Counted from the stretch's first letter, positions 1,577 to 58,959 are shown. The stretch is 64,000 bases of DNA from Chromera velia (GCA_018398765.1 JAHBMJ010000168.1:1-64000), one strand, 5' to 3'. The notes: a model not told the origin generated them from the letters alone. Numbers and translations: made by a program.

Positions 1577-2264
1577 GGGGATGGCTGTGCTCTGGAGACT
1601 GTTACAGAGCTCGGGACAGACATGATGAGTGATGAAGTGAGTCGTCTTCGACTGCGTCTTCTGCTTCGGCTCAGCAAAGAGGGGCCTGTGCAGATGCAAC
1701 CTGTTGGGCTGGAGATACTTTGATTTGAACAACATTGTCGATAAGGACCTTGCGCAAATGGGGAGGTTGTGGGGTGCGAAGCTCTTGGCTTTCTGGAAAA
1801 TGGGCGGCGCTGGTCCGTGTGTGTCATCGGACAGGTTGAAGACCTCACAAACCCACAGAACAGTTCCAACGGCTTTACATCCAGGGTCGAAGCCTTGCTG
1901 TCCTCTTCTGCAGGAGGGAAAGGGAGCTCCTGAGAGTCGTCCCCTCCCTACATGCGTGGGAGCCTAGCTGTGCCTGATCAATCTACATGGGCGGAAAGCG
2001 CCAGGTAGGGGAAGAGCGGAGAAAAACAATAGATACATGACAGGGCATGCAGGTGTTGCATACGAGAAGATTGACTTCAACAACACCTGCGGGCGACTGA
2101 CGTAAGTGTTGCCACAACACAGTGCAACAAAAGAGTCCTTTTAACACATTCGCAGCATTTGTGTATCCACAGAAGGAGTATACTAATACTACAAAGGTTT
2201 CAGACCGAATGGGTATTTCAGAGACTCACATCTCGAGCAGCTATAAGTTCCGGAAATATCATGA

Positions 2265-2495
2265 AACGTATACGTACGTTTCCATGCATGCATGAAACAA
2301 GCTAGCATGATCAGCTAGGTGTGCAGCTCGCGCGCTTTGCGCGCGCGCGCGCGTACGTCTTTCGATCGCGCGCGGCTTCTTCACCCTAGCTGCCCCACGC
2401 TACGCTTTTCCGGGCCATAACCACCTGTTGCACGCTTGCAATCGCTTAATTGCGTGCGTCAGCCATCCATGTTGCATGGCTGCATGCATGCATGT
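2265..2495. promoter_or_regulatory. Putative promoter patch: CpG/GCGC-rich with TGCATGCA motifs, upstream of the Dicer-like gene
   Basis: TGCATGCA at 2285-2292 and from 2481, (GC)n run at about 2329-2352, and many short palindromes, about 300-500 bp upstream of ATG 2780. TGCATGCA is a known ApiAP2-bound motif in apicomplexans. Confidence 0.45.
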
Positions 2496-2779
2496 TGGTC
2501 CGTCTATATGGTCCGACTATGGTCCGGTCCGACTCTGTGAACTCCCATTGCTAAAACATGCAGGTCGATCGAAGCGAAAGAAGCAACTTCAAGCAAGTCT
2601 CACTACAAGAAAGTTTAAAGCCATCTCACCGGCCATTTTTGACACGCGATCCGTGCGAACAGCCCGGCAATTTTTGGTCTCTCAATTTTCTTGAATTTGT
2701 GGGTGTCTCCCGTCTCCCATTCCCGACTCATATGCTCGTCTCCTATTTAAAAAAGCCTACAGTATAACGGCCGAAGAAG

Positions 2780-4602
2780 ATGTCGTCAGTCGGATCAGAA
2801 TCACCGCGTGGCTCTCCGACAAGGTCGCCGCGTAAGTCAGACAAGCAGGTGACTCTAATCAAGTCGCCACCTGCGTGTGTCTCTGAGGACGGCGAGCCAC
2901 TTGCATGTGAGGAAAGACGACGGCTCGTCTGGCTGAAGGTCGCAAACAGACGGACAGAGGAGCTGAGAGAGGAGGAGGTGGAGGAATTATGCACAGAGAA
3001 GACAGGAGACGTGAAAGACATACCGTTTTGGTCGACTGCTATTCATCTGGCTGCGCAGGACGGCATGTACCATCCATACCCTCTCTGCTTGCTCAGCGTT
3101 GGCAAGCCCCCGTGCGTGATGGAGCAGGGGGTCTATCTGATGAACGGAGGGGGTGGCACAGAAGCCCTGCGGACCATCGACCTGCACCTACGAACGCATT
3201 TCTTTGGCGAAGGGGAGGCTGTGGAAGCAGGACACACCTGGGAGGGAATGTTTTCTGTGGGGGGTGGGTTTGGAAGAATGCGCTTCGAAAGGAGACACAA
3301 GACTCTGTACACTGAAAAAGACATCGAACTGATCCAAGTGAGTTGAAAAACTTAACCACAGACATACAAGCAGATACAATCAGGCACTCAGATACTCCGC
3401 AGATACATGCAGAGACACACAGACAGTCTCAAAGAGACGCAGAGACAGACACCGACAGACACAGCAACAGATACAGAGACAGGCACAGAGGCATACAGAA
3501 AGAGGCGCAGAAAGGTGTGATCAACGCGAATGACAAGCAACCATGCATGCAGACAGACAGCAGTTGGATCGACAGACAGGAACAAAGAGGTACACAACAC
3601 ATGCAGAAGACATCCAGTTCCATAAACAGTGGGACAGACAGTCTGAGAGCACCTCAGAAAATTTTGACTGCAAAAGTTGGAGTCCTGTCCCGTGCGTGCA
3701 GAGATCGGCCGACCTGATGAACTCCACGTTCGGCGTTGAGAGCGAGCTTGGTCTCCTTCCAAAGGACGCAAAAGGAACGCCCCCGCGGGTGCTTGTCGCC
3801 TTGGCGGGGGCGGACGGGATGCCCGACCTGCAGGCAATGAAGGCGGTTCTCCGTTTTACCTGCATTCAAGACGATGGATGGTCAGTGACTGTCTTAATTC
3901 TCTTGACTTCTTTTGGGGTGTATAGACATTGTCAAACTCTGCTTTCATTAGTGCAAGCGTTTCTCTGGCCCCTCCAAAGCGTACGCTTCGGGGGCGTCTC
4001 ATCGGACTTGCACACAAGCTATCAGATTTGTGAAAGAGAAGAGGGCAATTGTGTGTCCATCAAAGGACAGTAGGGGCGGACGGCTTGGCCGTACAAGAGC
4101 ACTCTCTCATCATTCTGCTGTTACTGTTGTGGATTGTTGTGGTGCAGCATGCGTCTGAATCGGATGCTCCAAGGTAATCCTTCTGACTCAAAAGTTAAAG
4201 AACACCTCAGGAGGGCGACGGGCGTCGTTGAAGGAGAGAGCGACAACAAGATCGTCATGCGGGCGCACGGTGCCGATCGGGAGAAGTTGGTGGTGCGGGA
4301 AGGTGGCGATGCGGGGCCTCCGATGGACTGGCGACCGTATTTGGCGCCTGTTGACCCTGCAGGAAATCTGGGGGGGGAAACAGAGGACACTGTGAGGGTC
4401 GTGGAAGTGCAGCTGCAGGTATGTGTTTGCAAGCTTCAAGAAAGAAATATTAATCTATGAAAACGTGCATGAAGATGCACTGAGAGAATCTCTGATGTGT
4501 TTCAACTTTCAAGAAAGAAACATGTGAAAACATGTGGCTTACATGAGAGATAGGAAAAGAAAAAAACGTTTCCCACAGACCGTAATCTGCAGTCTCTCTC
4601 TG

Positions 4603-4635
<33 letters not shown>

Positions 4636-4651
4636 ACGTGTGTGTGTGTGT

Positions 4652-4688
<37 letters not shown>

Positions 4689-4748
4689 TTTGTCTCTGTC
4701 TCTGTCTCACGCACATATACATACATACATACAGACACACGCACACAC

Positions 4749-4805
<57 letters not shown>

Positions 4806-4917
4806 AACGCGCACATACACACACAGAAACGCGCGCGCACACACACAAACACGCGCACGCTCGTACGTTTGTACACGCACACACTCTCTCACCATTCACA
4901 TGCACGCAGACGGACTT

Positions 4918-4959
<42 letters not shown>

Positions 4960-7558
4960 TGTGTGTCTGTATGTCTCTCTCCCTCTCTCACACCCACACG
5001 CATACACGCACGTGTAATATGTGTATTGACAGCAAGCTTGCATGATAAGTTGTATGAGCATACTGTTGGGTACACGTCTTTAGCATAAAAACATTCATGA
5101 ATTCACCGAAATTCACGCTCTTACTGATTGACCTGACTCTCTTGGTTTCCTCTCTGCTTTGTTGCAGGGGGCTTCGAATCCCTTGGCGCGCCCTCGGAAG
5201 ACATCGGTTTCCTTGGAGCAGAGTGCCAGAGCCCTTGCACTCCATCGCAGGAGGGACTGTTGGCTGGTTCCGTTTTCTGTTGGGACGGGGGTTGCAGTTT
5301 GCGGGGCTCCAGATCTTGTTGGACAGATGATTGAAGACCAGGCAAAGGAGGTGGAATTTGAGGGGATGTCGCAAGATGGTGTTGTGGTGGATCGAGTTCT
5401 TGGGAGAGCTGCCCTACTCAGGGCAACACCAAGTAGGTTGAATTTTGACGTCCTGCTCACTCAAACCGAAAGTAAGGAAGGTCGACTTGCTCTCCTGCAG
5501 TCGCTCACCGAGCAGCTCCCTGGATTGGTCGTGACCCCCGATAGGGAGCGCCTCGAGTTTGACGGCGATCTGTACATGGAAATCCACGCAGCCATACACA
5601 TGTTTACCCGAGGAAACTGTAGCACAAAGGCTACTGCTCGTACGCTGGCCCTCGGGAAGGTTGTCAACAACGTGACCATCGGGGAAATCGTCCGTGAAAG
5701 AGGCCTTTCGGGTCTTATCACCCCCAAAAGAGTAGGCCCAACGGCACTTGCCGAAAAGTTGTCCCGGGGGGGGAAAGACATCAGGCTAACTCGCAAGGAG
5801 CAGGCAGATGTCGGTAAGGCACTGCTGGGTACTGCCGCCGCCTCTCGTGAAGCCGATACAAACGGGTACCTCAACACCCTCGTCCATCTGTATGTCCCGG
5901 CTGACTCTGCTGCAGCGGGTGTAGCTACGTCCGCACCGTGTCAAGCAGCAGCAGCGACAACAGCTAAATCAGCATCCACGGTCTCTCGGGCCCCTATCCG
6001 ATAGGCGCAGTTGCAGTCTGCAAAGATGGCAGACAACATTCGGAGAGCGGCCCCCAAGTCTTCTGATAGTTGGGAGATGCCTCAGGCAATGTCTGGACAG
6101 CCCTACCCCCACCACCAACAGCTACCGATCGAGACCCGGTCTTCTGGCCACAGCCGTAGTCCAGGAGAACCGCCCGAGTACAAGTGTTCTCTCGTCGCGC
6201 TTCTGTGCCCCTTTGCAGGTCCGGAGGGGGACAGGCAGACTCTAGTCGCAGTCCTGCAGAAGGCAGGCTTCCTGTCTGACCTGTCGGGCCAGAAGCTCGC
6301 ACTGTTGATTCAGTACCTGGCAAGTGCTCGAGTCTTCCGCACGATTCCGGTCTGCCGTGTTGTATTTGTAGATCTGCAGTCTCCCTTCCTTGTACCTCTC
6401 GCACAGAGAGTGTCTCTTCCCGCCTCTGTTTTCACCGTTCGCGCTTCGGTGGACTACGTGTTTCTGGGGGGGGCAGCCGAAAAGGCAGTCACAGGATGGG
6501 AGCTGCTCTGCAGGCTCCACATTGTTGTGGCCTCCGCAGATGTTTTGGTGCAGCTTTTGTACATCTGCAGAGAAAAAATGAGTTCCGGGGCAGCATTTGC
6601 AAGGCTTTTCCCAATTCCTTCCCATTCTGATTCAGTGAAAGTGAGCGACAGGGAGTGGGCACACCTTCACGGCATCTATGAGCGCGGGACCGACGAGCAT
6701 GTTAAAAGTCTGCGAGAGCGCACTGAAGGTGGGGTTGCCGTCACGCAGGAGGAGGTGTGTGCACCAGTCTTCGACAGTTGGCTTGCAAAAGCGTTGTCTG
6801 AGGCCGCAGCCAGCCGGGCATCCAAAGCAGAGGGTAAAGGATCCGAGGGAAGCCGATCAGAGGGGGGAGTCAATCAGATGCAGGACGTGATTGCCAATCT
6901 GGGCGATAGAAGCCGTGCTCTCTTTGTTTCCCATCCCTCCGCCAGCGTTGAAACAGCAGAAACAACCGCAGCTGCGGCTGGGACGGGGAAACTGAATCTC
7001 CCTCTCGGTGCGATCTCCCTCCGTAGAGCCGCCCCCCAGACCACTCCCGAGCGAGGGGCAGGTGAGCAAAACACTGAGCGAGCATCAGAGGGAAAAAATA
7101 AGCGGAAGAAGAGACGACTCGAGCTGCAGCAGGCCGAAGGCAATGGCCCCGAGGGAAGCGCCCCTCCACCCTCCCCTTCCAATAGAACCCCTAGTAGAAG
7201 CCCCCGTGGCACGCCTTCCGCACATGCATCCAGTGGGTCAGAGAGAGGGGGGGCACCGAGCCCTAGGAGACTGGAACAGTGGACAGACGAAATCTTAACG
7301 ACGATCTACAGAGCACATATGGGCGCTGTCCTGGTTGCTGCAGGATTCGAGTTTGACAAGTGCTTCCCAATCTTGTGCGTACCCCTTAAGGACAAAGTCA
7401 TCTGGTGGGTAAGGAAGATTGCGGGTCGCCTCACGGGGCAGGATGCTCATGCATCTGGCTCTGCTGCATCCTCCTCCTCCTCATCGTCAGCTGCGGCTGC
7501 AGCAGTCCCTCTCTCCTCCGTGCACACAGATGGCAGAGCTAGTGGTGAAGGGGGATGA
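2780..7558 (+). CDS. Dicer-like protein without helicase (platform/PAZ-like region + RNase IIIa + degenerate RNase IIIb). Internal in-frame TAG at 6002-6004, so possibly a pseudogene
   Basis: Exons 2780-3337, 3702-3880, 4148-4418 and 5168-7558 are joined by phase-consistent GT-AG introns. RNase IIIa: LLQSLT...ERLEFDGD (5546-5569)...VVNNVTIG...[11 protein letters not shown] (5798-5830). RNase IIIb-like: [15 protein letters not shown] (from 6449) and [20 protein letters not shown] (7289-7348). ORFs 5159-6004 and 6011-7558 share a frame. Confidence 0.75.
4593..4975. repeat. Intronic compound microsatellite cluster (CT)n(GT)n / (CA)n(GA)n
   Basis: Three alternating-orientation compound dinucleotide blocks within intron 3 of the Dicer-like gene. 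Confidence 0.9.
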
Positions 7559-8255
7559 AAGGGGCACAGACTCTGTAATAAAAACGATAGACATATCATG
7601 AAGAGGCGTATTAGTAGAACAATGAACAACCATGGAGATTTGATTTGGTAGAATTGAAATAAAGCTGTTGTGATTTATTGTGATTTTAAAACTTTACCTA
7701 ACAAAACTGACTGTGTTTTCCAGTATTTTACCATTTTTTAAACTAGTTTTTTAATCAACTAAAAACCTAGCTAAAAACATGTTGCTTCACGTTGCTTCAT
7801 GTTGCTTCTAGTGTTGGCACTGTATGTGTTGCTTAAAAAATTAAAAACAACTTTTAAAAGTTTTATTTCATATAACGTAAAAAAATTGTGGCCTGAAATC
7901 ATACTTTAGACTTTCTTTCACTTTACAAGTTAATTACAACTTTTGATTACAACTTTACATATCACACCTATACAACAGTAAAAAAAATGAAAAAAATATT
8001 ATTTAATACGAGAGTTAAACTAAGAGTTTTTCTCTTATAGCTTTTTTTCTTTTAATAAGAACATACATAATCATATAGAGCAGTGTTTATCTAATACCTA
8101 GTCTAACACTTCAGGGGAACATAAATCGGTATTATAAATCCTATCGTGTTTCAGATCCTGTTCGATTCTTTGTTCGATTCTATTTGAGGCTAGAGTTCAA
8201 CTGAAAGCCGCTGAGTTGTAAAAAGCCCCGGCTTCTATATGTTAAATACCGGAAA

Positions 8256-8488
8256 CTAGGCGTTGGCTAAAGAAAAAAAAAAAAGATCCCCTCAAACCCT
8301 TTACTTTTTTTTTTTTTTTCTTTTTCAGTCAAACAACTGTTGTGCAAGTGTTGCACAGGTGTTGTTCATGTGTTGCACAACTGTTCTTAGGTGTTGCCGA
8401 TGATAAAAAAGTAAAAAAGAAAGAAAAAAAAAAAAATCTCCTCTGATCGCTTATTTTATTTTATTTTTTTTCTTTAGCTGACGCCTAG
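8256..8488. mobile_element. MITE with CTAGGC termini and a degenerate 8-bp TSD
   Basis: Left end CTAGGCGTTGGCTAAAGAAAAAAAA; right end TTTTTTTTCTTTAGCTGACGCCTAG (about 25-bp TIR, 2 mismatches). Flanks ACCGGAAA and GCCAGAAA. Confidence 0.7.
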
Positions 8489-9679: not shown

Positions 9680-11179
9680 TTACAGAAGGAACATCTCCTT
9701 CAGGTGCTGGTTCAAAAAAATGCCTTTCGGGTCCATGTCTTCCCGAATCTGCAGGAACTCGTCAAGCTTGGGGTACACGAGGGACAGGTAGAACTTCGTG
9801 TAAGGAGAGATGATGTACTTCTTCCCCCAATGAAACCTTGCACCGTACTTCTCCCCAATGCTCTGCAACACAGCGGACCACAACTGGAATTCACGAAGGT
9901 CTCCGGGGCCTGCTCTCGTCCCGCTGACGATCAGAGAGATCACCCCTGTGGTCCTCTCATACTCGGGTGACATGTACGATACAGGGTCCGCAGACACGTA
10001 ACGCATCATCACCTGCACACGCACGTAGTTTCTGTGCAGGTCGGAGAGAGACCAGATACGCTGAATGAATTCCTTGAAGGCGTCGAGAGACTTCTCGACA
10101 GGGAAGAACAACTCCATCTCAGTGAACTTGCTGCTACCTGCACGAGCGCTGCTCATGGCCTTGAAAGAGGCGTCTGCGCACGTTGAACGGTACACGCGGG
10201 ATATGCGTGTGTCAGACAACACAGCCCACTCCTTTCTCCTTTCAGCCCTTCTCTCGAGGGTCAAATTTCGTGCCAGCTCCTGAGCGAGGGCCTCTGCGGC
10301 CAATTCCATCGGGTCGTCTTCCTCCTCTGCCTCTCCTGCAGTCCCATTCAAAACCTTCTGCACCTCCTCCTCTTCCTCTTCCTCCTCAGGGCGGCACCTT
10401 CTGATGTTCTGCACTACCGCCTCATCAATCTCGGTGTACGCAATCACCATACCGCTCAGCTGACGGAAAGGCTGCACAACGAACTGCATTCTCGGGAACT
10501 GTTCATACAGGGCGGGAACCTTCTCAAGGAGCTCCTCAACGTCGTAGTTGACTACCAGAGACCTCTCAAGGTAGTACTTTGGCACAGCTTGGAACGTGAG
10601 TGTGCTCACGACACCCAATGCACCCAGGCCCACCCGGGCAGCTGCGAACAGCTCTGGGTTCACTTCGGGAGAGGCAGTGATCACAGTGCCATTCGCTGCG
10701 ATGAGCGACAGGCTTACGATTGCTTCTGAGATTGTTCCAAGCTCCCTACCAGTTCCGTGGGTGGCTGTTTGAGTGGCACCAGCCACAGACTGGACACTCA
10801 CAGCACCCAACTGAGGGAGTGCCCACCCGAACTCATCAAGAATCTCATTCAACTCATACAGCCGCATACCTCCCTGTACTGTGATTTGCATCTTCTCCCT
10901 GTCCACGGACACCACAGAGTTGTAAGAGTCCAAGGACATCAAAGCACCCCCTCCATCTGGGGCCGCAATTGGGGACCAGGAGTGACCTGCCCCCACCAAC
11001 TTGAGGGTCAGGTTCTGTGTGGAAACGGCATTCACGATCTGAACGATCTCGTCCTCGCTTGTGGGGGTGACCAGAGCCACCGGATGAGCAACCACACCGC
11101 CCTCCCAATTCTTCCATTCAGCGGCCGCAGCGGAGACTGCAGCCGCGATCACACTCACGGAGGTGAAAAGAAGCCGCAT
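9680..11179 (-). CDS. FAD-linked L-gulono-/D-arabinono-1,4-lactone oxidase-like protein with a signal peptide, single exon
   Basis: 499-aa ORF. WKNWEG start of the FAD_binding_4 fold, VGAGHSWS (position of the FAD-linking His), QSVAGATQTATHGTG, ARVGLGALGVVS, C-terminal HWGK and REDMDPKGIFLN. Hydrophobic leader MRLLFTSVSVIAAAVSAAAA. Confidence 0.9.
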   Translation of the reverse strand: MRLLFTSVSVIAAAVSAAAAEWKNWEGGVVAHPVALVTPTSEDEIVQIVNAVSTQNLTLKLVGAGHSWSPIAAPDGGGALMSLDSYNSVVSVDREKMQITVQGGMRLYELNEILDEFGWALPQLGAVSVQSVAGATQTATHGTGRELGTISEAIVSLSLIAANGTVITASPEVNPELFAAARVGLGALGVVSTLTFQAVPKYYLERSLVVNYDVEELLEKVPALYEQFPRMQFVVQPFRQLSGMVIAYTEIDEAVVQNIRRCRPEEEEEEEEVQKVLNGTAGEAEEEDDPMELAAEALAQELARNLTLERRAERRKEWAVLSDTRISRVYRSTCADASFKAMSSARAGSSKFTEMELFFPVEKSLDAFKEFIQRIWSLSDLHRNYVRVQVMMRYVSADPVSYMSPEYERTTGVISLIVSGTRAGPGDLREFQLWSAVLQSIGEKYGARFHWGKKYIISPYTKFYLSLVYPKLDEFLQIREDMDPKGIFLNQHLKEMFLL

Positions 11180-11713
11180 CTTCCTGAGCTATCTGTCAAC
11201 AAACAAAAATCGCTCGTCGATTGCAACAAAACAATGCTCTCTTGTCCGTTGAACCGATCCCAGTGAGGCTGTTCCAGCTTTTTTCAGCTGATCTTCTTTC
11301 CGGAAGACTGAATCTTTGAAATTTGTGGGATTCGAGGGGAGAAATTTTGCGCCGCGGTCGGGGAATTCAAGCCGATTTTGGTTGTCCGCGCGTTCGGCCC
11401 ATGAAGGGGACCTGCATGGTCGGACCCACGGACGTTCGGACCAGACCTAAATCGACTTTGCGATCTCACTTGTGCGAAAGGAGTTCTGTTGACACGAGCT
11501 AGTGGGGCCTGATCGAAGGACACGACTGCCTGCTCAGGCACTTGATGGAACATAAGAAAGACTGTCGAACACGGGTTCTGCCGGTGAGGCACTCCAACAT
11601 CATTCTCGAGCGTAACTTGACCGATCTGCGCGAAGAGGCAGACAGAGGGCGAAAGACTTGAGCTGTGCTGGAGATCAGGAAGGCCCTGTACACCGAACTT
11701 GTAGAAGACTACA

Positions 11714-14700
11714 ATGGCAAAGAACACTGCCCTGAAACATCTGCAGTACTCCCTGTATGTCTGTGCGCTGATCGGGTGCATCAGGTCAGCTTCTCTGTGT
11801 GAAGATCTTTCGCCGTAAGCTGAACTGGCTGCTCTTCTTCACACTTCTGCCCGTTTGGACCCCCCCCCCCCNNNNNNNNNNNNNNNNNNNNNNNNNNNNN
11901 NNNNNNNNNNNNNNNNNNNNNNNNNNNNNNNNNNNNNNNNNNNNNNNNNNNNNNNNNNNNNNNNNNNNNNNNNNNNNNNNNNNNNNNNNNNNNNNNNNNN
12001 NNNNNNNNNNNNNNNNNNNNNNNNNNNNNNNNNNNNCCCCCCCCGTTTTCCCTGCAGCACGGTGAGGATTTACTTTTCTGATTACTACGTCCCCGTGTTC
12101 ATTCTGCTGGCAATCGCGCGTAGCATCCAGTACCTGTACACGATCTACTTCGCACACCCGTTGCACTTCGAGTCTTTGGAGGATGTCAATGACTACCTGG
12201 CGGCTGCAAGGAAGAAACTGCCCAACTACAAGGTCAGAAACGCCAGTTGTGGTGCTGCTTTGTGGAAAAGAGAGAAAAGGGATGACTTGCCTCTGTTCAA
12301 TGTACGATGTGTGTTGTTTGACTGACCTGAATAAACTGAACCTCTTCGACTGCTGCAGGAGGGATGGGTGACCGTTCGGGATGGAACCCGCATCTACTAC
12401 GAGCGGGTGGGGCACGGGCAAAAAGTTGTGGCGCTTGCCAATGGTCTGGGAGCACGTGAGTGGTCCTGGTTGAATTTCATGCATAAGGCGCGGGAGGAGA
12501 ACCTGTTCTCTGAATGTACGTTCATTCTCTGGGGCTACAGAGGACTGTTCATGTCTGGACCCCCCCCTCCTGGGAAACACTCAGTGAGGGATCACGCAGA
12601 CGACCTCCTGGACCTGATGCGCATTTTTGGAGTCCCCAGACTCCACGCAATATGGGGGTGGTCTACGGGGGCCCAAGTCGGACTGCAGGTTTGTGCATTT
12701 GCTTTCTGTATGTATGGTTTGTTCAAAAGAATTCTGTATGGAAGCAAAAATATGGGGGTGGTCTACGGGGGCCCAAGTCGGACTGCAGGTTTATCTGTTT
12801 GTTTGGTTGAGGGTGGGTGGGGGTGTGAAGAAAAGAGAGCTAGGGAAAGGCGGCCACACGTTCTTCCTGCTTTGGGTTTTTTCACCCGTCCTTCATTGTT
12901 TGAATCTCTTCGACCTTGGCTGTGTGACACTCCATTTGTTCTCTTGTAAGCTTCCTGTGTCCCCTCCAGCCTTCACCTTGAGGTGCTTTTGGTTCTGCCT
13001 TTGTGAGTGAGTGCAGTTCGCGGCAATGTACGGGGAACGCGTGGATCGGCTTGTGTTGATGAACGGTCAGTCAGTCAGGGAGTCATCTCTGCTGCTCGTT
13101 TGGCCCCCCTCAGCTTTGCTGTCGAGGTTCGGATACGTTAATGGGAGTTTGACGAGTGCATGCGTGCGGTCGAGAGACTTTGGGGAAGACAGAGAACGCG
13201 TCGGCGGATCTGTTTTTGTGCGCACGATTGCATACGCATGTTGTATTTGGTTGGTGTGTCACTGCAGGAGCTCATGGACACACGCTTCACTCGGCTCTTC
13301 AGCCTGTGCTTCCCATTCCCTTCATGGGAGAGGCACTTCAACTGTTCGTCCACTACATCCGCACCCTTACCCCCTCCATATGGACCTGGATCGGCAGACA
13401 AATCTATTCCTACCAGACCTTCTTCAGGTCCGCAGCAGGCAACCTCCGTCACGCCGTAATACGGGCACTTTTGATTGTGTATGTGATAATGACAGGCTTG
13501 CAAGCACACGAAGTGAATCACGTTTTTTTTTGTTCGCGGTACTGGTGATTTTGGGCGATGGGGAGTTATGCTCTCTTCTTCCACAGGCAACTTTCTTTCT
13601 GCACAGAAAGACATGGTACTGGACTAGCAAGTTGAGTAACCTTTTTAAATTGCTTGATCGATTGATTATGTTTCTGGCCGAGCTTGCTTGCAGGTGGTGC
13701 ATTCGTCCCTACGCCGTCCTGCACGGCAACCCGGTGCTCGAGTGGGCAACGCTGCTGTACTTCGCAGACGCTTTCGACTTCCACAGGGGGCAGAGCGACA
13801 AGCACACGCTGGTGGGTCGCGTCGGGCCTTGTCATCTCGTTTGTCCCTCATTTTGTGTGGGTGATTCAGAAGTCTGTATCTGTTGGGTTTTGCGTTTCTC
13901 GTTCAGCTGATCCAAAGTCCCTTCCATAGAGCCTCCTTCCTGTTCATGTACGCGTACCTGCCGTGCATACGCAAACATCTCCCATATCTCTGGATGCATG
14001 ATTGTCTGCAGTTTCTTCTACAGACGTTTCAGGAACTAGACGCCCACAGCGCCTTCCACCTGCTCCCTGAAATTCGCACGAAGACCCTGATCATTGGAGG
14101 CTTCTGCGATTTCCTTACGCCAGTCTACCACAGCTTTGCGATGAATGCGAGGATGCCGGATGCCCGTCTTCTCTGCTACTTCTTCGGGACTCATTTCACC
14201 TGTTTTGAGTTCCCCCAGTCAGTCTCCAGGGAAGTTATTCGATTCCTTCAGGAGCCTGCACAAAACCCCTACCTTCCTCTAACCGACGCAGCCACCCCGA
14301 CAGAGGCTGAAGCCAAAACCAGCAGCCCGTCTGAATGGGATCAGGAGTGGGAGAAGCAGGGCTCTCTCAACCTCGACGCCTTGGACGGAGACGGAGACGG
14401 CACGGGTCTGAATCAGGACAGCCAGACGAGCAGGATATTTAGGTATCTTCCTTTTGGATCACCCAGACGCAGAAGGGGGCCACGAAAAGCTCAGTATAAC
14501 TACAAAACTGCTTACGCTCCTGTCCTAACCCCTGCCTATAGACACCTGGACTCCCCATCTGTTGCCGCGGCAGCTGCAGACCCCTTGCTCTCCGTCCCCG
14601 CTCCCCCTTCTTTCAGCCTTAGCCGTGCAATCCAACCTCCAGCGGCTTCCAGCCTGAATCAGTCTTCCTCCATGGCGCGCTCTCTCCTTTCCCCCGAACC

Positions 14701-20465: not shown

Positions 20466-22367
20466 TCAATCCCGCTTGCCTTCCCCCCCTTCTTCCGTTG
20501 CCTCTCCTCTGCTCTCCCTCTGTCCTGTCAACTCTTCCTTCTCGTCTCCCCACCCCAGGTACCTGACGAAGACCAACAGCAAAACGGCAAAAATGTTCAG
20601 AAGGAGGCCTGCACGAAGCCAGATCGTCGCTGCCCAAGATGATGTCCAGCCAAACAGAACAATATTTAACAAAATGGAAACAATTTCTATACTCACCGAC
20701 AGCGCAGCGTAGGTTGCTTTCAGGTAAAGAAACACACACAAAAGACAGAGAAAGGCCTTAACAGCCATTCCGAGCATGCCAGTGGCAAACTCGCCGGAAA
20801 TCGAATTTTTGCACCATTTCCACCACGTCATGTCCCCCCTACAAAGAACAGCCCGCAGCCTCCTCTCGACTCCCTCAAGCTCCTCCGTGACTCTCGGGTC
20901 CACACGGAGGACCTGTCGCACACCACCTTCCTCAAAAAACGCAAACAGCTCCCGCGCGTCTCCGTGAAGAGCAAGCACCACTGGTGCCCCTTCCCGACTG
21001 AGCATCTCAGCCGCCTACACGCGGAAAGACTTCACTTCCAGCGGCGGCTGTCTTTTCTCGCACCAGAGAGGCTTCCGATTTTCCACAGAGATCATCGCCC
21101 CTCTGTACGAGATGCAGTCGCCCTCAATCAGTACTGCACCGTCGTGGGAGTCTTCAGACGGGTCGAAGATTGAAACAAACTGGTATCCCCACTCCACCTT
21201 TTCCTTTTTTTGTGTCTGCCGCGGCAGGATGAAAGGGTCCTCAGGGTCCCTCGTTGGGAAAACCATCAGGGCCCCCCACCCGATCTCCGCAAGTTGGGTC
21301 ATCCCCGCCAAGCACTCCCTCAGGGTTTTCCGGTCAGTGGGCGTCACCTCCCGCACAATGTGTGGACACACAAGCGCATGCAGGCCAATGGCCACATGGA
21401 TCCACCCACCTTCCCCAAATGCCACAATCCCCGTGACAAACAGATGTGCTAAGGCAACACCCAACGCGGCGCGGCTGTGCAAAAAGATAGGTGTGAGCAG
21501 TTCGAACAAGGATCCCAGAAAATGTTCCTCACTCCATGGATCTGTGCTGTCGTAGGCCTTCCGAATTTCCTCTGCAAGCTCACCTGCCTCACTTCTACTA
21601 TCGGCCACTGCCAATCGGGAGTGGCATGTCCTCCCATGCATCAAAGGGTCTGACCAGTTGCGAGGGGCATCCGGAAAGACAAGGGAGAACTGTTTTCTTT
21701 CTTCAGAAACGACCACCACTGTCGCCTTGCCAAACGCTGCCAGGTCCTCTGCCGCGCCATGCCGCGACCCCCTGCTTCTCCGACCTCCGTTGGACTCGCC
21801 GGGGCTAGTCTCGGGGAGGCTAAACTGCAAGGTTCGTCGGTGCCTCGAAACAAATATCGGTTTCACAAACAATCCCGTCTCCTCAATGAAGTCACCGTGA
21901 ACCACAGTCACACCAGGCCTCACGGATTTCCACAGATTTTCCACAGTGACCGCTAGTTGCTGGTGAGTCGCAGGTTCAGAGGTCGCTGCCACGTCTCGTT
22001 TCTGCAACGGCCACCAAGATTTGCGGAAGGGAGTGCACCCACGAAGAGCCACCGTCCCGCCTTGGCCATTGCGTGCCAGCCCGACACAGTACGTTGCGAT
22101 GGCCAAGAGAGTTTCATTGGATACGCGCGGATGCTGCTGTTTGACTCGGAGGATTAAGTAGGTGATGGGCAACACAACCAGGACTGCGAAAACAACCCCC
22201 CAAAAAAATGTTGTTGATGCAAATAGTTTCACAGGATATGTAAGCCATTTTCTTGCAAACCCATGGGCGTTGCAAGAGTCAAGATAGAGGAGATCAAGGA
22301 AGAAGAAGGAGCACACAAGGCTCGCGCGAAGCGAGTTTTCGGATAGGACCCCCCGAAGAACATTCAT
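20466..22367 (-). CDS. Multi-pass membrane protein with two DisA_N/DAC (diadenylate cyclase-like) domains. Internal in-frame TAG at 21015-21017
   Basis: From ATG 22367 (MNVLRG): TM segments; DAC1 (AIATYCVGLARNGQGGTVAL...GSRHGAA 21750-21770...VVVSEE, VSEE at 21699-21710); TM segments; DAC2 (MTQLAEIGWGALMV...SIFDPSEDSHDGAVLIEGD, HDGA at 21135-21146...FRV*AAEMLS); then more TM segments. ORFs 21015-22550 and 20466-21005 share a frame. No introns are evident. Confidence 0.8.
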
Positions 22368-23803
22368 CTCAATATCGCGTGTCTGAATCTGGTTGCCTGA
22401 ATGAATAGTGCAGGACCACTTTGTTGCCTTGATACTGCAATCAGAAGTCGAATGCTGACAGGCCGCAGGGTATAGCTGCAAGGACAACAAAAGGCTGATC
22501 GAACGTTTGATCGAATCGATTGGATCGATTGCATGATATATAGTGTGCATCGATTTTCAAGAGTGGATCGATAATATAGGTCAGTCACTTTCGATCTCAT
22601 CCAACGCTGTCTGCGTGCATGCACTTGACACAATTAAGAGCATGCAGGCCGGCAGGCCTGCATTGCGCCCGCGACGCGTGTTTCGGACGAGCCTATATAG
22701 CTAGCTCGATCGAGCTCGCGGGCGCGCATGGGAGTTACGCAGCCACGGGGGGCTCGAGTACGTGTTCCTTTGCGAGTGCCGGGGGCATAACGCCCCGGCA
22801 CAGGCAGTGTCAGGCACCAAGGGACACCGACGGTGACTGGAAGTAAATGGAAAGCCTAAGTTTTGACGCTGAACTTCTAAACTGAACCGAATGCACATTA
22901 AATTTTTATATACTTAAGTTATTACTAAAACAAAGTGTATCTTGGTGTTTTGTTAGCTGGTGCTAGCTGCTGCATGCATGGTCCCACAAAATTTGAAACA
23001 AATGAAGGCATACCAGCTGATTACCATTTGATTGTATGCAGATTCAATTTATAAAACCCCAAGTAAAACTAAGTAAAATAATAATTTAAAAGGAACAGAG
23101 ATAAGGGTTCATAAATATGTATACTTTAGAATTAGTTTGATATTTCCCTTCTAGGTTGAACAAATCCCAAACAGTGTAAGCCGACCTCCGGCAGTCGACT
23201 GCGGGCAAAACCCGGGACATCAATTTTATACTATGCTATATTATTTAGCTATATATGCGCGTGAAGATTTCGATCTCGTAAAAAACACCTCATCAAAAAG
23301 TGTGCTATCATATGATATTGCTAGTGATATTGTNNNNNNNNNNNNNNNNNNNNNNNNNNNNNNNNNNNNNNNNNNNNNNNNNNNNNNNNNNNNNNNNNNN
23401 NNNNNNNNNNNNNNNNNNNNNNNNNNNNNNNNNNNNNNNNNNNNNNNNNNNNNNNNNNNNNNNNNNNNNNNNNNNNNNNNNNNNNNNNNNNNNNNNNNNN
23501 NNNNNNNNNNNNNNNNNNNCCCCCCCCTCCCCTCCTGGCCATAATCATCATCATACATACTATTATGATTATTATTATTAATAATAATCGGTCTATTGGC
23601 CATCATGCAATGCATGATCATAAAAAAATTTATATAATATTTAACATTTTAAAAACATCATGCCATGATATCAAATTGTCGTATTGTTTACTAAAGCAAC
23701 CTAATTTTATGAAAAGTAATGAAAAGAATTTAAGCTACTAGGAACTTCAAGTTTCAACGGCTGTTTTCCGAAAAAGAACTATTTGAATTCAGTTGGATCT
23801 CGA

Positions 23804-29705: not shown

Positions 29706-32700
29706 TGTGTGTGTGTGAGAGAGAGAGATTAAGCGTGTGCATGCGTTTGTGTGCAGACTTTCGAGGAGTTGAGATGGGAAGATCTACAGGCAGGGAGGAG
29801 GGGGCCAGGGGCGCTGTCGGCACCTGTGGGTGCGCCTTCCTTCGGAGGGGGGGCGGCGGCGTCAAGTGGGGGCACGGTGTTTGGGGGAGGGGGGGCAGGG
29901 CAGCCTGGGCAGGGACAGGGTGGCATTTTTGGTTCTTCCGGAGGGGCAGGTCTTTTTGGACAGGGTGGCGCGGCAGCTTCTGGAGGTGGGTGGTCCATTC
30001 AACAAGTCTGTCTTTTCTGCCCTTCTGCCTCCCGGCCTCTCTGCATCTGCCGGCCGCATGTCTGTCAGGAGAGGAAATGGAGTTTTGTGAGGGAGGCAAA
30101 GGAGAGATACGCAAAAAGTAGCCATAGAGACTGCCTCTTTGTCTGTATGTCGGGAGACCTCGAAAAGAAAGGGGATGTTTATGGGTCATGGATGAGCAAC
30201 CTGAACGGAAACGTGTTAGAACGGTTCAATCGTCCTGTATCAAGACGTTCCTCTATACGCGTGCTCCGCTCTCTCTGATCTCATGAGAAAGTAAGAAGAG
30301 AGAGAAAAGAAAAAAAAGAGGCGGAAAACAAAGTTTGAATTGTCTTTGCTCTGTTCGGTGGCTCTTTATGTGTCTGTCAGTCTGTAGGCCGCCGTGTCTC
30401 GCGCATTATCTGCCTTGCTTCGTCGATTGTGAGGGAAGGCTTGTTCTAAACAGTTTCCTCTAGTCTTCTCTGATGCTTCTGCCTGCTGGTCTGTCCCCTT
30501 CATCTGCTTGCGCTCGGGTCGCCTGCACAGAGAGGCTGCGAGCCCTGGGTTGGCATGTGGTGGAAGAGAAAGAAAAAGGCTCTGTGAGAAGCAGAGAGAG
30601 CACTGCTTTGCAAAATGTAGGCGTGAACAGAGGCGACACTGTGTATCGACATCCACTTTTCCCCTGTGTCTCCATCGTTTGCAGCCCCGCAAGCGCAAGC
30701 GCAAACGGGCGGACTGTTCGGTCAGCAGCAACCGCAACCCCAGCAGCAGCAGCAGCAATCATTTGGTGCTTTTGGGCAGCAGGCCCAACCTTCTCAAGCG
30801 CAGCCGCCGACTTCGGGTCTGTTCGGCCAACAACAGCCGCAGGGAGGGGGGGCATTTGGCCAGCAGTCGCAGCAGGGACAGGCAGCAGGTGGGGGGGGTC
30901 TTTTTGGTCAGCAGACGCAGCCGAATGCCGCCGCCACACAGGGGCAAGCGACGGGTCTGTTCGGCCAACCTCAGCAGACGAATGCCGCTCAGGGGCAATC
31001 TGCCGCTCCCTTCGGTCAGTCTCAGCCGAACCCGGCCACACAGGGACAAGCGACAGGTTTGTTCGGTCAGCCAGCGGCGCAGGCTCAGACAGGGGGGGCG
31101 TTTGGGCAGCAGCAACCAGCTCAAGCTCAGACAGGAGGCTTATTTGGGCAGACCCAGCAGCAGCAGCAGCAGCAGCCGGCACAGGCACAACCTGCAGGTT
31201 TGTTTGGACAGACCCAGCAGCAACAGCAGCCAGCGGCGCAGGCTCAGACAGGAGGGGCGTTCGGACAGACCCAGCAACAGCAGCCGGCGGCGCAGGCGCA
31301 AACTGGAGGCTTATTTGGGCAGACCCAGCAGCAACAGCAGCAGCAGCAGCAGCAGCCGGCACAGGCACAACCTGCAGGTTTGTTTGGACAGACCCAGCAG
31401 CAACAGCAGCCAGCGGCGCAGGCTCAGACAGGGGGGGCGTTCGGACAGACCCAGCAACAGCAACAGCAGCCAGCGGCGCAGGCGCAAACTGGAGGCTTAT
31501 TTGGGCAGACCCAGCAGCAACAGCAGCAGCAGCAGCCAGCGGCGCAGGCGCAGACGGCAGCAACATTTGGCCAAGGGAGTGCCCAGCCGACACAGGGTGC
31601 CAGCGTTGGGGGGGGGAATCTCTTCGGAGGAGGGGCCTCCACAGCTTCTCCCGCCCCTGCGACCGGTCAGGCGAGCGGAGAAACCCCAGGGGCCTCCTCA
31701 GCTCTTCAGCAGAACCCCCAGCAGCAGCAGCAGAATGTAGCACAAACACCCTCTCAACCGACAGAGCTCAAACGTCATTCCTGTTGGTATCTCCTGCACC
31801 ACTCCCCTTCAGATGGACGGGGATCACCCCCGATGTCCCCTCCTGAGCCGTCGCCCCCACCCCGCCCACCTAAACCGGCACCCCTGTTTCAAGACTGCGA
31901 ACTGATAGGTGCAGGCCACCCAGGCGCAACGCGTCCCTCTGCCTACTCTGAACGGACTCGCGAAAAGAGTTCTTTCCATAACTTCCCAAATTTCGGGACT
32001 CCCGGGACTTCTTTCGACACTCGGGGCCCGCATGGGGTATCTTTCATGAAGGGGGCCCAAGCAGACAACCGTCTCAGCAGCAGGTCGGCAGGCGGCCCCC
32101 CTCCTTCAAAGGCTGCAGCTGCAAATTTGCCTTTCGGGTCCTCCTACCAGACTCCCAATCTAGGCCAAGAGACCGGTGCCCCCTACAGCACCCTGGGGGG
32201 TCAGGAGAACGTCCCTCCTCCTACGCAGGGCCTCCAGTCGCTTGGCCTTGACCTGAGTCAGTCCTGTCACGCAGCCGCTGCGAGGGAGCGAGAGAGGGAA
32301 AGAGAAAAGGACAAAAGACAAATGGAGAAGGAGAAGGTGGTGCAAAGACAGGGTGGTGCCTCCTCATCATCCAATGCCGAGAGCTCCACGAAAGAGGGAA
32401 GCTCTATGTATCCATCCCTCCAGTCATCTTTCTCCTCCACCATCCCTCTGGGCCCCCCCGGGGTATCTGAGTCCTCTCCGAGTGCCCCTGCGTCGTCGGC
32501 CTCCTCTCCTGTGCCGGGGTCCCTCGACCTGCCTCCCTGGGCCCCGAAGCTCACAAAGGAAGGAGTGAAGACTAGTCCCGGAATCGCCACACTTCAGGCC
32601 TTCTCGAAACAGCAAATTCGTCGCGTTGCAGACTTCCAGATTTCGAAGGATGGGTACGGTTCGATCCTCTGGCCGGGAATGACTGACCTTGAAGGTGTCG

Positions 32701-32838
32701 ATCTGGACGCCTGCGTGCAGTTCCAGAATGGCTGTGTGTCCGTGTACGAAGATCAGGTTGAAGGGAAGGACAAACCTCCACGAGGAACAAAACTGAACAA
32801 GAGGGCCAGAATCACAGTGCTTTGCGCGTAAGTCCTTT

Positions 32839-53698: not shown

Positions 53699-56477
53699 CT
53701 GTGTTGTTAGGAGTAACCAACTTAGTTTGGTTACCGAGGCGGCCGTTAGGCCGCTTGGTAACCATTTTCATGGTTACAGTAATCCTGCAGAGTCACATTG
53801 ATTACCAATTTTTAAGAAAATCCGGACTAACTACCAATTTTTAAGAAAATCCTAAAAAAAAATTGGTAACTCCCATTGGAGTCTCCCAATTTTTAGGTGA
53901 CTCTAAATGTTCATAGAATTTATTCCTAATAATGAATTAGAGTCTAATGGCTGCGGCTAGAGACTAGTGAGCCCCTGTCTAGTCTGTACACAAAATTTTA
54001 GCTTCAAACTGTATGTACTTCTTTCACTAGACTAGGTACTAATTTTTCAAAATTGGGAGTTACTGGCGGTAAAAAATTGGTAGTACTACCAATTCGATGC
54101 CCAATTCAACTCCCAATTAATTCATTAGGGTGCCCGCTCCGGGCACTATATTTGTTATGGGAAGAGGGGAGGGTGGTGGCGGCTTGATTGTCTGGGTTCG
54201 CCCCGAATTGAAGGAGGGGCCGTAGACAGAGAAGCAGAGGGAGCAGGATGGTCAGACAGCAGAATGGGGGAGGGCAGCGTCGAGGAGCCCGAGAGAGAGC
54301 CCGAACCTGTCCTCCTTGACAACTGTATCTTAGGCAGTCTGAGGTATGCGGATGATCTCTGTTTCCTTGCTCATTCCGTCTCAGATCTGCAAAAGAAGTT
54401 TTCAGCCTTGGAAGGGTATTGCAAGGAATGGGGACTGACTGTGAACTTAAAGAAAACGAAAATCTTACGCCTGTCTGCCTTGGCTCTGGGGCAGTCTGCA
54501 GGGAGAGTCATGTATGGTGGGAGGGAAGTTGAATGGACATCCGAATACAAATATCTGGGGTGTGTTTTCTTTGAAGGGGGGTGTTTGAACAAGACAATTG
54601 AGTCCCGTATTACTTCTGCTTCGCGGGCTCTGGGAGGGGTAATTAGGTTGATTGCGAGCATGGGCCCGCTCAGCATTGATGTGCAGGTAACAGTCTTTAG
54701 AGCCTGCTGGACCTCCATAGCGCTCTACTGCCTTGAATATCTGCCAGTGCGGGATACAGACCTGCTCGCTCTTGATGCTTTGCAGCTTCGGTTTGCCCAT
54801 TGGTATGGTCATTTGTCTGCTCGCAGCCTCTGCCTGCCCTCTCTTTGCATCCTTGGTCTTCTTCCCTGCAAAGCCCTTCTCTGCTCCCGTATCGCTGACT
54901 GGTGGCACTCTCTTTCTATCACAACACACACTATTCCTGCAGCCATGTTGCATGCCTGGAAGAATAACTGCTGCCAACAATTCATAAGGTCTATAGATAG
55001 GCTGTTTGATTTGATTTCTGTCCGCTCGCTGAGGGTCGAGCCCGATCTGTCTTCCCAACGCGGGCAGAATGGTGATAGGGCACAAGGCACCGGCTCACTT
55101 TTCTTCAAGAGCAAGGTGAGACAGACAGTTGCAAAGGAATGCATGAAGGCTTCTGAGGATGATGGGCAATCTTCCTCTCACTTTCCCCTCCTTGCTAGAC
55201 TCACCCCTCTGCAGCGCGACTTCCCGTCCTCCCACTGTATGTTTGTCTTCCTCCTGTATAGCAAGTCGTCCTCCGGTGTTCTTTCCGTCTCTGCCCTTCC
55301 CCGTTCTGCCCTGTCGGTTACGGATGGCTCGATCTTTTCTTTTTTACGCATGCTGACATACAACCCGATGGGCGGGCAAAGTGGGCTGCCTGTTGGTTGC
55401 TCTGATAGAAAGCTGTGCACCTATGAAGCCTGCTGCCGGTATGTAGATGATTGTATTCATCGGCTCTCTGTCTGCCCCCGATGGACTGCCGAACAAGGCT
55501 TTTTGCAGTGGTTAGCATTAATTCAATCAGACCGCTTCACTCGTTGTGACTCACCCTTTACATCCGCCTCTAGGACCTTTTCGAATCTGGGGGTTCGCAA
55601 GTTCATCACATCGCTCTTGCGCTCTCAACCCTCTCTTCTCTTTATGATTTCTCGTCATATTGTAGTAAATGATTGATTAGATTAAGTTCGAATAACTGTC
55701 GTCCACTTAGCTTGCAGCTGGCATAATTGAACAGACCCATGCATGTATGCGCCATCCAGGAGTTCTAAGTCCACCTAGGGCTTGGTATCAATCAATCAAT
55801 CAAGAACTGGGCAACCAAGATGTCCTCGGGGGACTGTTTGGTGGAAATAACAAGCCGATCGAGGACTACACGTCCTCCTTTCTCATGTATTACAGGAAAG
55901 ATAATCCAATGCCTGCGCATTTTGCCATTTGATTATTAAATTACATTGAACAAACCTGTCGCAGATGTGTATCGATCGCATAATTTTTGCATAATGATTC
56001 AAATTTGGGTTTTTAACAAGTTTTTGACAAGTTTTCAACTTAAGTTTTAGTGGTTGTTCAACATGATTTTAGACTCTAAACAGTAAAAAAGTTAGTGTCA
56101 AAATTTTTTTTTTTTAAGAAAAACATTTGCGTGCCGAAGCGAGAAGGTGTGGGGGGGAGGGGGGGGGGATCTTGCGTACCATTGGCACTCAAATGAATTT
56201 TTACATGGCCCCAAACAACTTAGACAAAAAAAGTTTAAAAGTGATCTTTTTAAACTTTTTTACGTCGTACTCTACTCGTACACAGTTTTTGAAGATGCGT
56301 TTCTCCTGTATTAGATCTTGATGCAACATGATGCAACATATTTGTGGGCAGATATAGCTAGATTACCGCGGTAGTGGTAATCCCCTCAGACCCCCCTAGT
56401 TACCAAGTTTTGGTTACCAATTTGATGGTAACCAAAAGCTTTCTAAGAAGGGCCGGTAGTTACTCCTAACAGCACAG
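53699..56477. mobile_element. TIR DNA element flanked by TA(TA) (Tc1/mariner-type target), containing a nested LINE fragment
   Basis: Left TATA|CTGTGTTGTTAGGAGTAAC; right GTTACTCCTAACAGCACAG|TATA (1 mismatch). GGTTACC/GGTAACC/TACCAA subterminal repeats at both ends. Confidence 0.65.
54157..55803 (+). mobile_element. Non-LTR retrotransposon (LINE) fragment: RT C-terminal half, CCHC-like end and (ATCA)n tail
   Basis: ORF 54264-55676 with LRYADDL, GLTVNLKKTKIL, EYKYLGC and C-terminal CTYEAC...DDCIHRLSVCP. (ATCA)4 at 55787-55802. Upstream GRGEGGGGLIVWVR (from about 54160) resembles an APE endonuclease motif. Confidence 0.88.
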
Positions 56478-57590: not shown

Positions 57591-58378
57591 TCAGCGGCGA
57601 AGGAGCCGACGGGAGGAGATAAAGAAAAGAACTGAGAGGCAGGAAAGTGATTTTACACAGACGAAGTTTAAACAACTGAACAACAGGGCGACACGCAAAA
57701 CAACAAGTCGTCGCTGCACATAACATCAACATTCTCATTCTTCCAACAATGAATGCACACGATTGATGTGATCACTTGCTTACTTTACATGTGTGGTATA
57801 ATTCGGAGCATGACGAATGCGAACGACACGAACGACAGAAGGATCGTCTTGATGTCCGTTGCATTACTCACTTGGTAAAACACATACAGCAACACAACCG
57901 AGAGAAAAAGAAAGGTCGCCATCTTGGAGGCTTTGGTGATCAACAGGAAGAAAACAGCTGGAGACTCGTCTTGGTCCTCTTGATTCGCTCTTCTCCGACA
58001 GGTGAACTTCCACCCTATATGCTCACCGCAGCCCGCGTTGTCGCACAAAAGGATCTGCCAACCGTATCCTCGAAACCATGAGACCTCAAATTCAGGGGGT
58101 CGCGGCTGCACAATCACATTGCGAATGATTCGCTTCGCAAGGAAAGTGTCAAAACTTCGGGGAAGCCAATTGACCACGAATGACTGAGTAAAGCGCAACC
58201 GGTGCACATCCACGAGTCCCTGTCCCCTTCGTATTCTGGTCTTTCGACTCAGTTTGGACGCAGCTGCCTTGAGGATCCTCTCGTCCTCTCCACATGAGAT
58301 CTGGTCGGAGGGCTCTGCAAGAAGGGCGTGGCAACACGGACAGAAGATACCGTCGACTCCTTGTGAACCGTGAAACAT
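57591..58378 (-). CDS. Stand-alone cereblon CULT (thalidomide-binding/Yippee-fold) domain protein with a hydrophobic C-terminal tail
   Basis: CPCC zinc pair and SWFRGYGWQILLCDNAGCGEHIGWKF (tri-Trp pocket plus second Cys pair). Exon 58378-57872, GTGAGT donor, TGCAG acceptor, in-frame exon 57713-57591. The unspliced alternative ends at 57785. Confidence 0.82.
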
Positions 58379-58959
58379 CCTCGACCGTACTTCCCCACCC
58401 GCCTGTTGCTCAGATCACTGCCGAGGCAACCGAAACGATGTCATCCTCTGACTCGGTTCATGTATGTATTGATATATGTCTCTGAGGGAGAGAAGGTCCT
58501 TGTATATGATGCGACACTTCTAGTTCAACCGGCCCTCCTGGGAAGGGGGGAAACGAGACCTGTGATTTCAGACGACCTTGAACCACAGGAATGAATAACA
58601 ACAGACTTCCAATCCAACGCGAAACGCTCCCTCCGAGAAACGATCAGACCAAAGCACGAACTCGAGCAGTTCCTGGCGAACGATGGTGGTCGGTCGGTTG
58701 GCTGGCCTGGAAATGCAAATGCCCCTCATGGTTTCGACGCGAGGTTGAAAACCTGCTCATCAATCATTGTCTAATCTGGCAGGCTCAATCTGGCAGAGTC
58801 ACACTGAGTCGCGTAGACGGGTCAGAAGTTAGGCAGCGCCGCCCGCGCGGGTATGCATGGCGCGGCATTGGCGCCGCGCGCGGGGGGGAGATCCATACCG
58901 GGCGGCCCGGGCCGATGCATACAGGTACATACAAGACCAAAGAGACACTGAAGAAAGGC

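What the first reader, a model, noticed from the sequence alone, without database searches (positions are those of the whole stretch)
2780..7558. Minimal helicase-less Dicer-like gene with an E-to-K dead RNase IIIa and a fully degenerate RNase IIIb
Seen: RNase IIIa retains ERLEFDGD and the second-motif Asp but has Lys (AAG, 5816-5818) at the catalytic Glu. RNase IIIb has lost all four acidic residues (VFLGG; TTIYRA) and contains a long low-complexity insertion with a basic NLS-like KNKRKKRR. By eye, upstream segments ([17 protein letters not shown]...[24 protein letters not shown]) resemble Dicer platform/PAZ/connector elements. Established: the equivalent E117K change in E. coli RNase III abolishes cleavage but not dsRNA binding. 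Inference: either a pseudo-Dicer dsRNA binder, or a recently disabled copy of a one-active-site nicking Dicer. This points to unusual RNAi machinery in this lineage.
Basis: partly seen in the sequence, partly recalled or inferred. Interest (0 to 1): 0.75.

Follow-up and report, generated by a model that had tools for sequence, protein, structure and literature searches.

The report
Broken, catalytically dead Dicer duplicate
In the alga Chromera velia this stretch is likely a far-diverged spare copy of the RNA-cutting enzyme Dicer, predicted to be unable to cut, and it is interrupted midway by one stop codon; the alga also has a normal-looking Dicer, so its RNA-silencing machinery need not be unusual.

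Summary
The locus is Chromera velia Cvel_2902 (614 aa, four exons) plus an in-frame 510-aa ORF behind one TAG (6002-6004). Two DNA runs confirm both the Lys codon (5816) and the TAG. Domain a is a real, very divergent RNase III with Lys where 145 of 145 comparison domains have Glu. RNase IIIb, platform and PAZ were not significant in profile tests, and the folds were too poor to use. A published alignment shows a separate C. velia Dicer, Cvel_3284, with all eight catalytic acids intact; by eye this locus matches it in order from PAZ end to the last RNase IIIb helix. One stop and no frameshift in 1,132 codons, despite great divergence, says the gene was long kept as a protein and broke recently. 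Best reading: a non-cutting Dicer duplicate, now probably a young pseudogene or truncated allele. Dead Dicer paralogs are known in ciliates. Boldest open reading: a naturally split pseudo-Dicer, since an ATG in a locally favoured context lies 21 nt after the stop. No homolog and no RNA cover were found.

The parts
2780..3337 (+). Exon 1 (aa 1-186); holds platform-like motifs seen by eye (3026-3097, 3272-3337)
   Evidence: Matches P0002; platform similarity not significant
3338..3701 (+). Intron 1, GT..AG
   Evidence: no RNA read shows the splice
3702..3880 (+). Exon 2
3881..4147 (+). Intron 2, GT..AG
   Evidence: Sequence; the spliced frame stays open
4148..4418 (+). Exon 3; PAZ-like region by position and by eye only
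   Evidence: no Pfam PAZ hit
4419..5167 (+). Intron 3, GT..AG, microsatellite-rich
5168..5545 (+). Start of exon 4: PAZ-end and connector-like segment
   Evidence: By-eye match to Cvel_3284; weak BLASTP extension to Dicer L170, E 0.67
5546..5833 (+). RNase III domain a; keeps E, D and D, has Lys at the fourth acid
5816..5818 (+). AAG (Lys) at the catalytic Glu position
6002..6004 (+). In-frame TAG, the only stop in 1,132 spliced codons (codon 615)
6026..7558 (+). ORF2, 510 aa, same frame, annotated as its own protein (P0003); ATG in AAG|ATG|G context
6389..6800 (+). Putative RNase IIIb N-part with signature decayed to VFLGG (6458-6472); rival reading: helicase HEL1-like remnant
   Evidence: By eye against Cvel_3284; neither reading significant
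6812..7276 (+). Low-complexity insertion with basic run KNKRKKRR (7094-7117)
   Evidence: Cvel_3284 has an insertion with a basic run at the same place (by eye)
7283..7369 (+). Putative last RNase IIIb helix; D..E replaced by T..R
   Evidence: (BLASTP to L185, E 0.33)

Best explanation
The locus is likely a helicase-less duplicate of the ordinary Chromera velia Dicer that lost both cutting centres while still being kept as a protein, and its frame is now broken by one stop codon at 6002-6004. Shown: four-exon gene, RNase III domain with Lys for the catalytic Glu, single stop, single copy, a separate intact Dicer in the species. Inferred: origin by duplication from the Cvel_3284 lineage; a long phase as a non-cutting dsRNA-binding or Dicer/Argonaute-accessory protein, holding RNA ends with a PAZ-like module and the duplex along the paired dead RNase III domains; a recent nonsense change that leaves a 614-aa piece without its RNase IIIb partner, so that in this strain the gene is probably a young pseudogene or null allele.
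For: RNase III domain a is real and aligns best to the first (IIIa) domain in 6 of the 7 two-domain Dicer segments hit that far or better (L185, L172, L200, L161, L170, L205; L171 gave short hits only), with Lys opposite Glu in all 6; Glu in 145 of 145 comparison domains; quick tree puts it inside RNase IIIa, SH-aLRT 99. Cvel_3284 keeps RLEWLGD/ADLVE and RLEFLGD/ADMYE and has helicase C-terminal motifs (PMC9353057 supplement); by eye short motifs recur here in the same order at PAZ end, connector, IIIa, IIIb signature, IIIb middle and IIIb last helix, with the insertion at the same place. Yet phmmer over 1.84 billion representatives finds only the two halves themselves, so divergence is deep. 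One stop and no frameshift in 1,132 codons, intact splice sites and in-frame codon bias on both sides of the stop mean selection for protein lasted until recently. Chance that E>K is decay after the stop: 0.03-0.17. Dead Dicer paralogs are kept in ciliates (PMC2647294).
Against: Link to Cvel_3284 is by eye only. RNase IIIb N-half, platform and PAZ are not above shuffles; a reversed-sequence control scored as well as the real N-terminus. The tree branch is very long (3.7) and AU tests do not reject placement with RNase IIIb (p 0.28) or bacterial enzymes (p 0.32). A pairwise alignment to E. coli RNase III put the second motif out of register. No dsRBD was detected. The ATG 21 nt after the stop has the AAG|ATG context seen at likely real starts, which fits a split gene better than an accident.
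Confidence: 0.5

Rival explanations
1. Naturally split pseudo-Dicer: ribosomes stop at 6002, re-initiate at 6026 (or use a second transcript), and the two polypeptides would pair through RNase IIIa and IIIb to form a non-cutting dsRNA clamp.
For: The stop lies in the Ala/Ser/Thr-rich linker, exactly between the domains; the next in-frame ATG is 21 nt on and is the only 1 of 10 in-frame ATGs of 5168-7555 preceded by AAG; AAG precedes 25 of 967 and 20 of 933 ATGs in the window, but the first ATG in 4 of 9 long ORFs examined, among them ORF1, the oxidase gene and this one; ORF2 is fully open.
Against: Small, hand-picked sample noticed after the fact; in-frame continuity is what one nonsense change gives; no room for a promoter; no expression data.
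Confidence: 0.17
2. Recently disabled one-site nicking Dicer: RNase IIIb was dead long ago, RNase IIIa cut one strand until E>K and the stop arose.
For: Three of four acids survive in domain a and none in b; GAG>AAG is a single transition; Paramecium Dcl1 has a dead second domain.
Against: Chance 0.03-0.17 of such a hit after the stop; the signature has Asp for Leu and the residue before the Lys is Gly where the five commonest residues (138 of 145) are F, L, V, M, Y, changes that suggest older loss of the active-site geometry.
Confidence: 0.1
3. Two adjacent unrelated genes: a single-domain dead RNase III protein and an ORF2 that is something else, for example a decayed helicase HEL1 remnant.
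For: Databases list two proteins; ORF2 has no family hit; hhalign lays helicase motifs I, Ia and Ib in order on 6170-6850; one lenient test gave 16 of 300 shuffles.
Against: Other HEL1 tests were null (270 of 282 reported shuffles, 32 of 300, 38 of 100, 49 of 300); same frame and 21-nt spacing; the C-terminal helix matches RNase III and, by eye, Cvel_3284.
Confidence: 0.13
4. Full-length working pseudo-Dicer: an unannotated intron or read-through removes the stop.
For: A GTATGT donor at 5890 like that of intron 3, with in-frame AG acceptors at 6069, 6153, 6159 and 6234.
Against: 5891-6151 has in-frame codon bias like an exon (0.125 against -0.147 and -0.26; intron controls are noisy); the acceptors have weak pyrimidine tracts.
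Confidence: 0.08

Closest known systems
Chromera velia Dicer Cvel_3284 (PMC9353057, supplementary alignment)
   Same: Same species; by eye the same order of PAZ-end, connector, RNase IIIa and IIIb motifs, and a long low-complexity insertion with a basic run inside IIIb
   Different: Has helicase C-terminal motifs and all eight catalytic acids; not found by phmmer from this locus; no stop
Paramecium Dcr2/Dcr3 and Tetrahymena Dcr1 (PMC2647294)
   Same: Alveolate Dicer paralogs predicted to be catalytically dead, kept beside an active Dicer, function undetermined
   Different: They keep helicase and DUF283, have lost all acids in both domains, are expressed and conserved in two genera; this one lacks a helicase, keeps three acids in domain a, is an orphan and has a stop
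Ciliate Dcl proteins, Eimeria/Cyclospora Dicer-like, Giardia Dicer (PMC2647294, PMC9353057; Giardia architecture recalled)
   Same: No helicase; N-terminal extension of 350-450 aa plus two RNase III domains
   Different: They keep catalytic acids (Paramecium Dcl1 lacks them only in the second domain)
E. coli RNase III E117K (PMC10037077)
   Same: Same substitution at the equivalent Glu; abolishes cleavage
   Different: Laboratory mutant of a homodimer that binds through a dsRBD; no dsRBD detected here

Membership tests
RNase III fold family (PF00636) | Profile match over the domain | tested here: met
   E 8e-5 over profile 1-96 of 102, below the curated cut-off; 0 of 300 and 0 of 100 shuffles
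Active RNase III | Four acidic residues, ExxGD and DxxE | tested here: not met
   Domain a has E, D, D, K; putative domain b has none
Dicer | Two RNase III domains in one polypeptide | tested here: not met
   In-frame TAG between them; splicing or read-through not excluded
Dicer | Second domain is an RNase IIIb | tested here: inconclusive
   C-helix borderline, N-half null; by-eye match to Cvel_3284
Dicer | First domain is of the RNase IIIa type | tested here: inconclusive
   BLASTP and tree favour IIIa; AU tests do not exclude others
Dicer | Platform, PAZ and connector upstream | tested here: inconclusive
   No Pfam hit; shuffles 11 of 500, 28 of 100, 55 and 123 of 300; model pLDDT 34
Canonical Dicer | N-terminal DExD/H helicase and DUF283 | tested here: not met
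   No hit on the 614-aa protein; an unseen upstream exon is not strictly excluded (gap of N at 1189-1576)
Dicer | Cuts dsRNA into small RNAs | not testable with these tools
   Needs an assay
Pseudo-Dicer (ciliate Dcr2/Dcr3/Dcr1 kind) | Expressed and conserved across species | tested here: inconclusive
   No homolog in four searches; RNA look-ups blank (see Tried and rejected)
Dicer-type HEL1 helicase (for ORF2) | Motifs I, Ia, Ib, II above chance | tested here: inconclusive
   no Walker A lysine or DExH visible

The most novel reading that the evidence does not exclude
A naturally split pseudo-Dicer: one mRNA gives, by stop and re-initiation 21 nt later, a platform-PAZ-RNase IIIa chain and an RNase IIIb chain with a nuclear signal, which pair into a non-cutting dsRNA clamp that competes with or feeds the real Dicer Cvel_3284.
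Probability: 0.12. Interest if true: 0.7.

Novelty: new variant of a known kind. Interest (0 to 1): 0.3.

Why it matters
If the best reading holds, it is one more, independently made dead Dicer paralog in alveolates, apparently being lost, and of modest interest: what such paralogs do is open even in ciliates, but a broken orphan is a poor test case. If the split reading holds, it would show Dicer's two RNase III domains separated onto two chains and a stop-restart arrangement in a chromerid nuclear gene. Searches of the held library found no paper on this locus (listings only).

Tried and rejected
Assembly error at 5816 or 6002: rejected by runs X1 and X2, though both may be the window's source. 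Paralogs and orthologs: none; three word-based searches, one full phmmer and cluster look-up gave only the two halves; the first 336 aa were not searched on their own; flat contig depth and no second contig at 80% likeness in X1/X2 argue for one copy; none in the window. No whole genome was held. RNA: no RNA holder listed among 11 runs; run X5 (about 97.5% alike, so another strain) covers the neighbouring oxidase gene but not 5100-7376 or exons 1-3; X8 and X9 gave nothing on 1600-4560 and had no positive control; this is no evidence of silence. Folding without alignment: pLDDT 34 (614 aa) and 46.5 (6170-6850); four fold searches gave no usable match. ESM Atlas: RNase III clusters at 0.76-0.80, below DUF3871 clusters and below the bar. 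PDB sequence searches: only Drosha at E 1.4 for domain a. NCBIfam and PHROGs: nothing. My own idea that VFLGG is a helicase GG doublet: not significant in four of five tests and displaced by the Cvel_3284 comparison. Complex prediction of domain a with ORF2 was not available. Earlier findings of the scan: four look-ups, all empty. Cvel_3284 could not be aligned with a tool.

Full report
Identity and gene structure. The first half of the locus is UniRef A0A0G4F7M9, Cvel_2902 of Chromera velia, 614 aa; the second half is listed as a separate 510-aa protein. Exons are 2780-3337, 3702-3880, 4148-4418 and 5168 onward, with three GT..AG introns. Exon 4 continues in the same frame to 7558 with a single TAG at 6002-6004; the spliced frame has 1,132 codons and one stop, at codon 615. 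Over 5168-7555 this frame has 1 stop, the other five have 11 to 37, and 1,000 shuffles gave a mean of 29 and a minimum of 13. Contigs of two DNA runs carry 5100-8284 with no difference, at the depth of the neighbouring contig, and one of them carries 1600-4560 likewise; both runs may be the window's source.

Domain a. Pfam PF00636 matches 5546-5833 at E 8e-5, under its cut-off. An HMM from 145 RNase III domains fetched by signature (rows under 150 aa and duplicates dropped from 239) gives 11.8 bits, 0 of 300 shuffles. BLASTP against 13 eukaryote-like segments aligns it best to the first RNase III domain of Dicers L185, L172, L200, L161, L170 and L205, and in all six the Lys of ADVGK lies opposite the Glu of the second motif. 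That column is Glu in 145 of 145 rows. A pairwise alignment to E. coli RNase III matched the signature but set the second motif out of register. A quick tree of 39 rows places the domain among RNase IIIa (SH-aLRT 99) on a branch of 3.7; AU tests do not reject RNase IIIb (p 0.28) or bacterial (p 0.32) placement. E117K abolishes cleavage and keeps binding in E. coli (PMC10037077, passages), so this centre is predicted dead.

The rest of the Dicer anatomy. With the Dicers I could fetch (mostly fungal), the platform-connector region, the RNase IIIb N-half and a rival helicase HEL1 reading of 6170-6850 were all at or near shuffle level (counts in the observation check and rivals). Only the last helix (7283-7351) leaned to RNase III. 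Both AlphaFold models, made without alignments, were unusable and fold searches were empty.

The Chromera Dicer. The supplement of PMC9353057 (passages; supplement search and parts) lists and aligns Cvel_3284. As printed (trimmed by the authors) it has helicase C-terminal motifs, RLEWLGD and ADLVE in RNase IIIa, and RLEFLGD and ADMYE in RNase IIIb. By eye, this locus shares with it, in order: QG..N.L..P...SV..E (5165-5220), C..P..V.Q (5300-5326), RGG and R...K..AD...AL.G (domain a), LV..A...SL followed by A[ST] and FLG (6389-6472), P....WL...L.EA (6764 on) and Y...GF.F.K (7304-7360), and both have a long low-complexity insertion with a basic run just before the second IIIb motif. This comparison was not computed.

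History. No search found any relative beyond the two halves themselves, Cvel_3284 included, so the sequence has diverged far. A gene decaying over that distance would hold many stops and frameshifts; this one has one stop, intact introns and in-frame codon bias in every segment, including the linker around the stop (intron controls noisy). So it was translated under selection until recently (inference). With 2.9% of substitutions making stops, one stop implies some 11 to 70 substitutions since loss of constraint, and a 0.03 to 0.17 chance that one of four acids was hit. The dead centre therefore probably predates the stop.

Mechanism. In Dicer the two RNase III domains pair and each cuts one strand while PAZ holds the duplex end (established knowledge, recalled). 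With no complete acid set in either domain, the read-through protein would hold but not cut dsRNA, acting as a competitor, guard or loading partner beside Cvel_3284 (inferred; no dsRBD detected, so binding is unproven). In the sequenced strain the stop leaves a 614-aa chain without its partner domain. The open alternative is a split protein: the next in-frame ATG lies 21 nt after the stop and is the only 1 of 10 preceded by AAG, a context found before about 2-3% of ATGs in the window but at the first ATG of 4 of 9 long ORFs examined. This is a small sample seen after the fact.

Comparison. Paramecium Dcr2 and Dcr3 and Tetrahymena Dcr1 have all catalytic residues mutated, and Paramecium Dcl1 has a dead second domain; helicase-less Dcl proteins have a 350-aa extension plus two RNase III domains (PMC2647294, passages). 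Eimeria has a helicase-less, PAZ-less Dicer-like protein, Toxoplasma one with a helicase and no recognisable PAZ (PMC2877743, passages), Plasmodiophora a Drosha-like one (PMC13547706, passages); PMC4791657 (passages) gives the motif definitions and further variant domains. Minimal and dead Dicers are thus known kinds; the combination here (no helicase, both centres dead, a stop in the linker) is a variant. Seven searches of the held library gave no paper on this locus or on a split Dicer in their listings.

Verdict. Real locus, largely as described, but most likely a dead and now broken duplicate beside a normal Dicer; expression unknown. Interest 0.3.

Noticed in passing
window 21015-22556 (-): Open frame with hydrophobic N-terminal segments and a diadenylate-cyclase (DAC, PF02457) match, E 5.5e-11, two stretches, with RHR and HDGA motifs: a c-di-AMP-cyclase-like gene in an alveolate.
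   Followed up: no
window 9680-11188 (-): Intronless FAD oxidase of the ALO/gulonolactone oxidase kind, covered by a contig of putative RNA run X5 with 57 differences in about 2,260 nt, so that run is a diverged strain.
   Followed up: partly
window 54129-55676 (+): Reverse transcriptase fragment, PF00078 E 6e-9, probably a non-LTR element remnant.
   Followed up: no
window 30627-32831 (+): Nup98-96 exon with FG repeats and the autopeptidase domain.
   Followed up: no
window 57785-58414 (-) and 12335-12949 (+): Yippee/cereblon-like domain (E 4.6e-4) and an alpha/beta hydrolase exon.
   Followed up: no
window 2780, 6026, 11176, 40996: Likely start codons share the context AAG|ATG, against 2-3% background.
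   Followed up: partly
L185 and L161 (metagenome loci): Dicer genes readable as single open frames of 1,108 and 1,556 aa.
   Followed up: no
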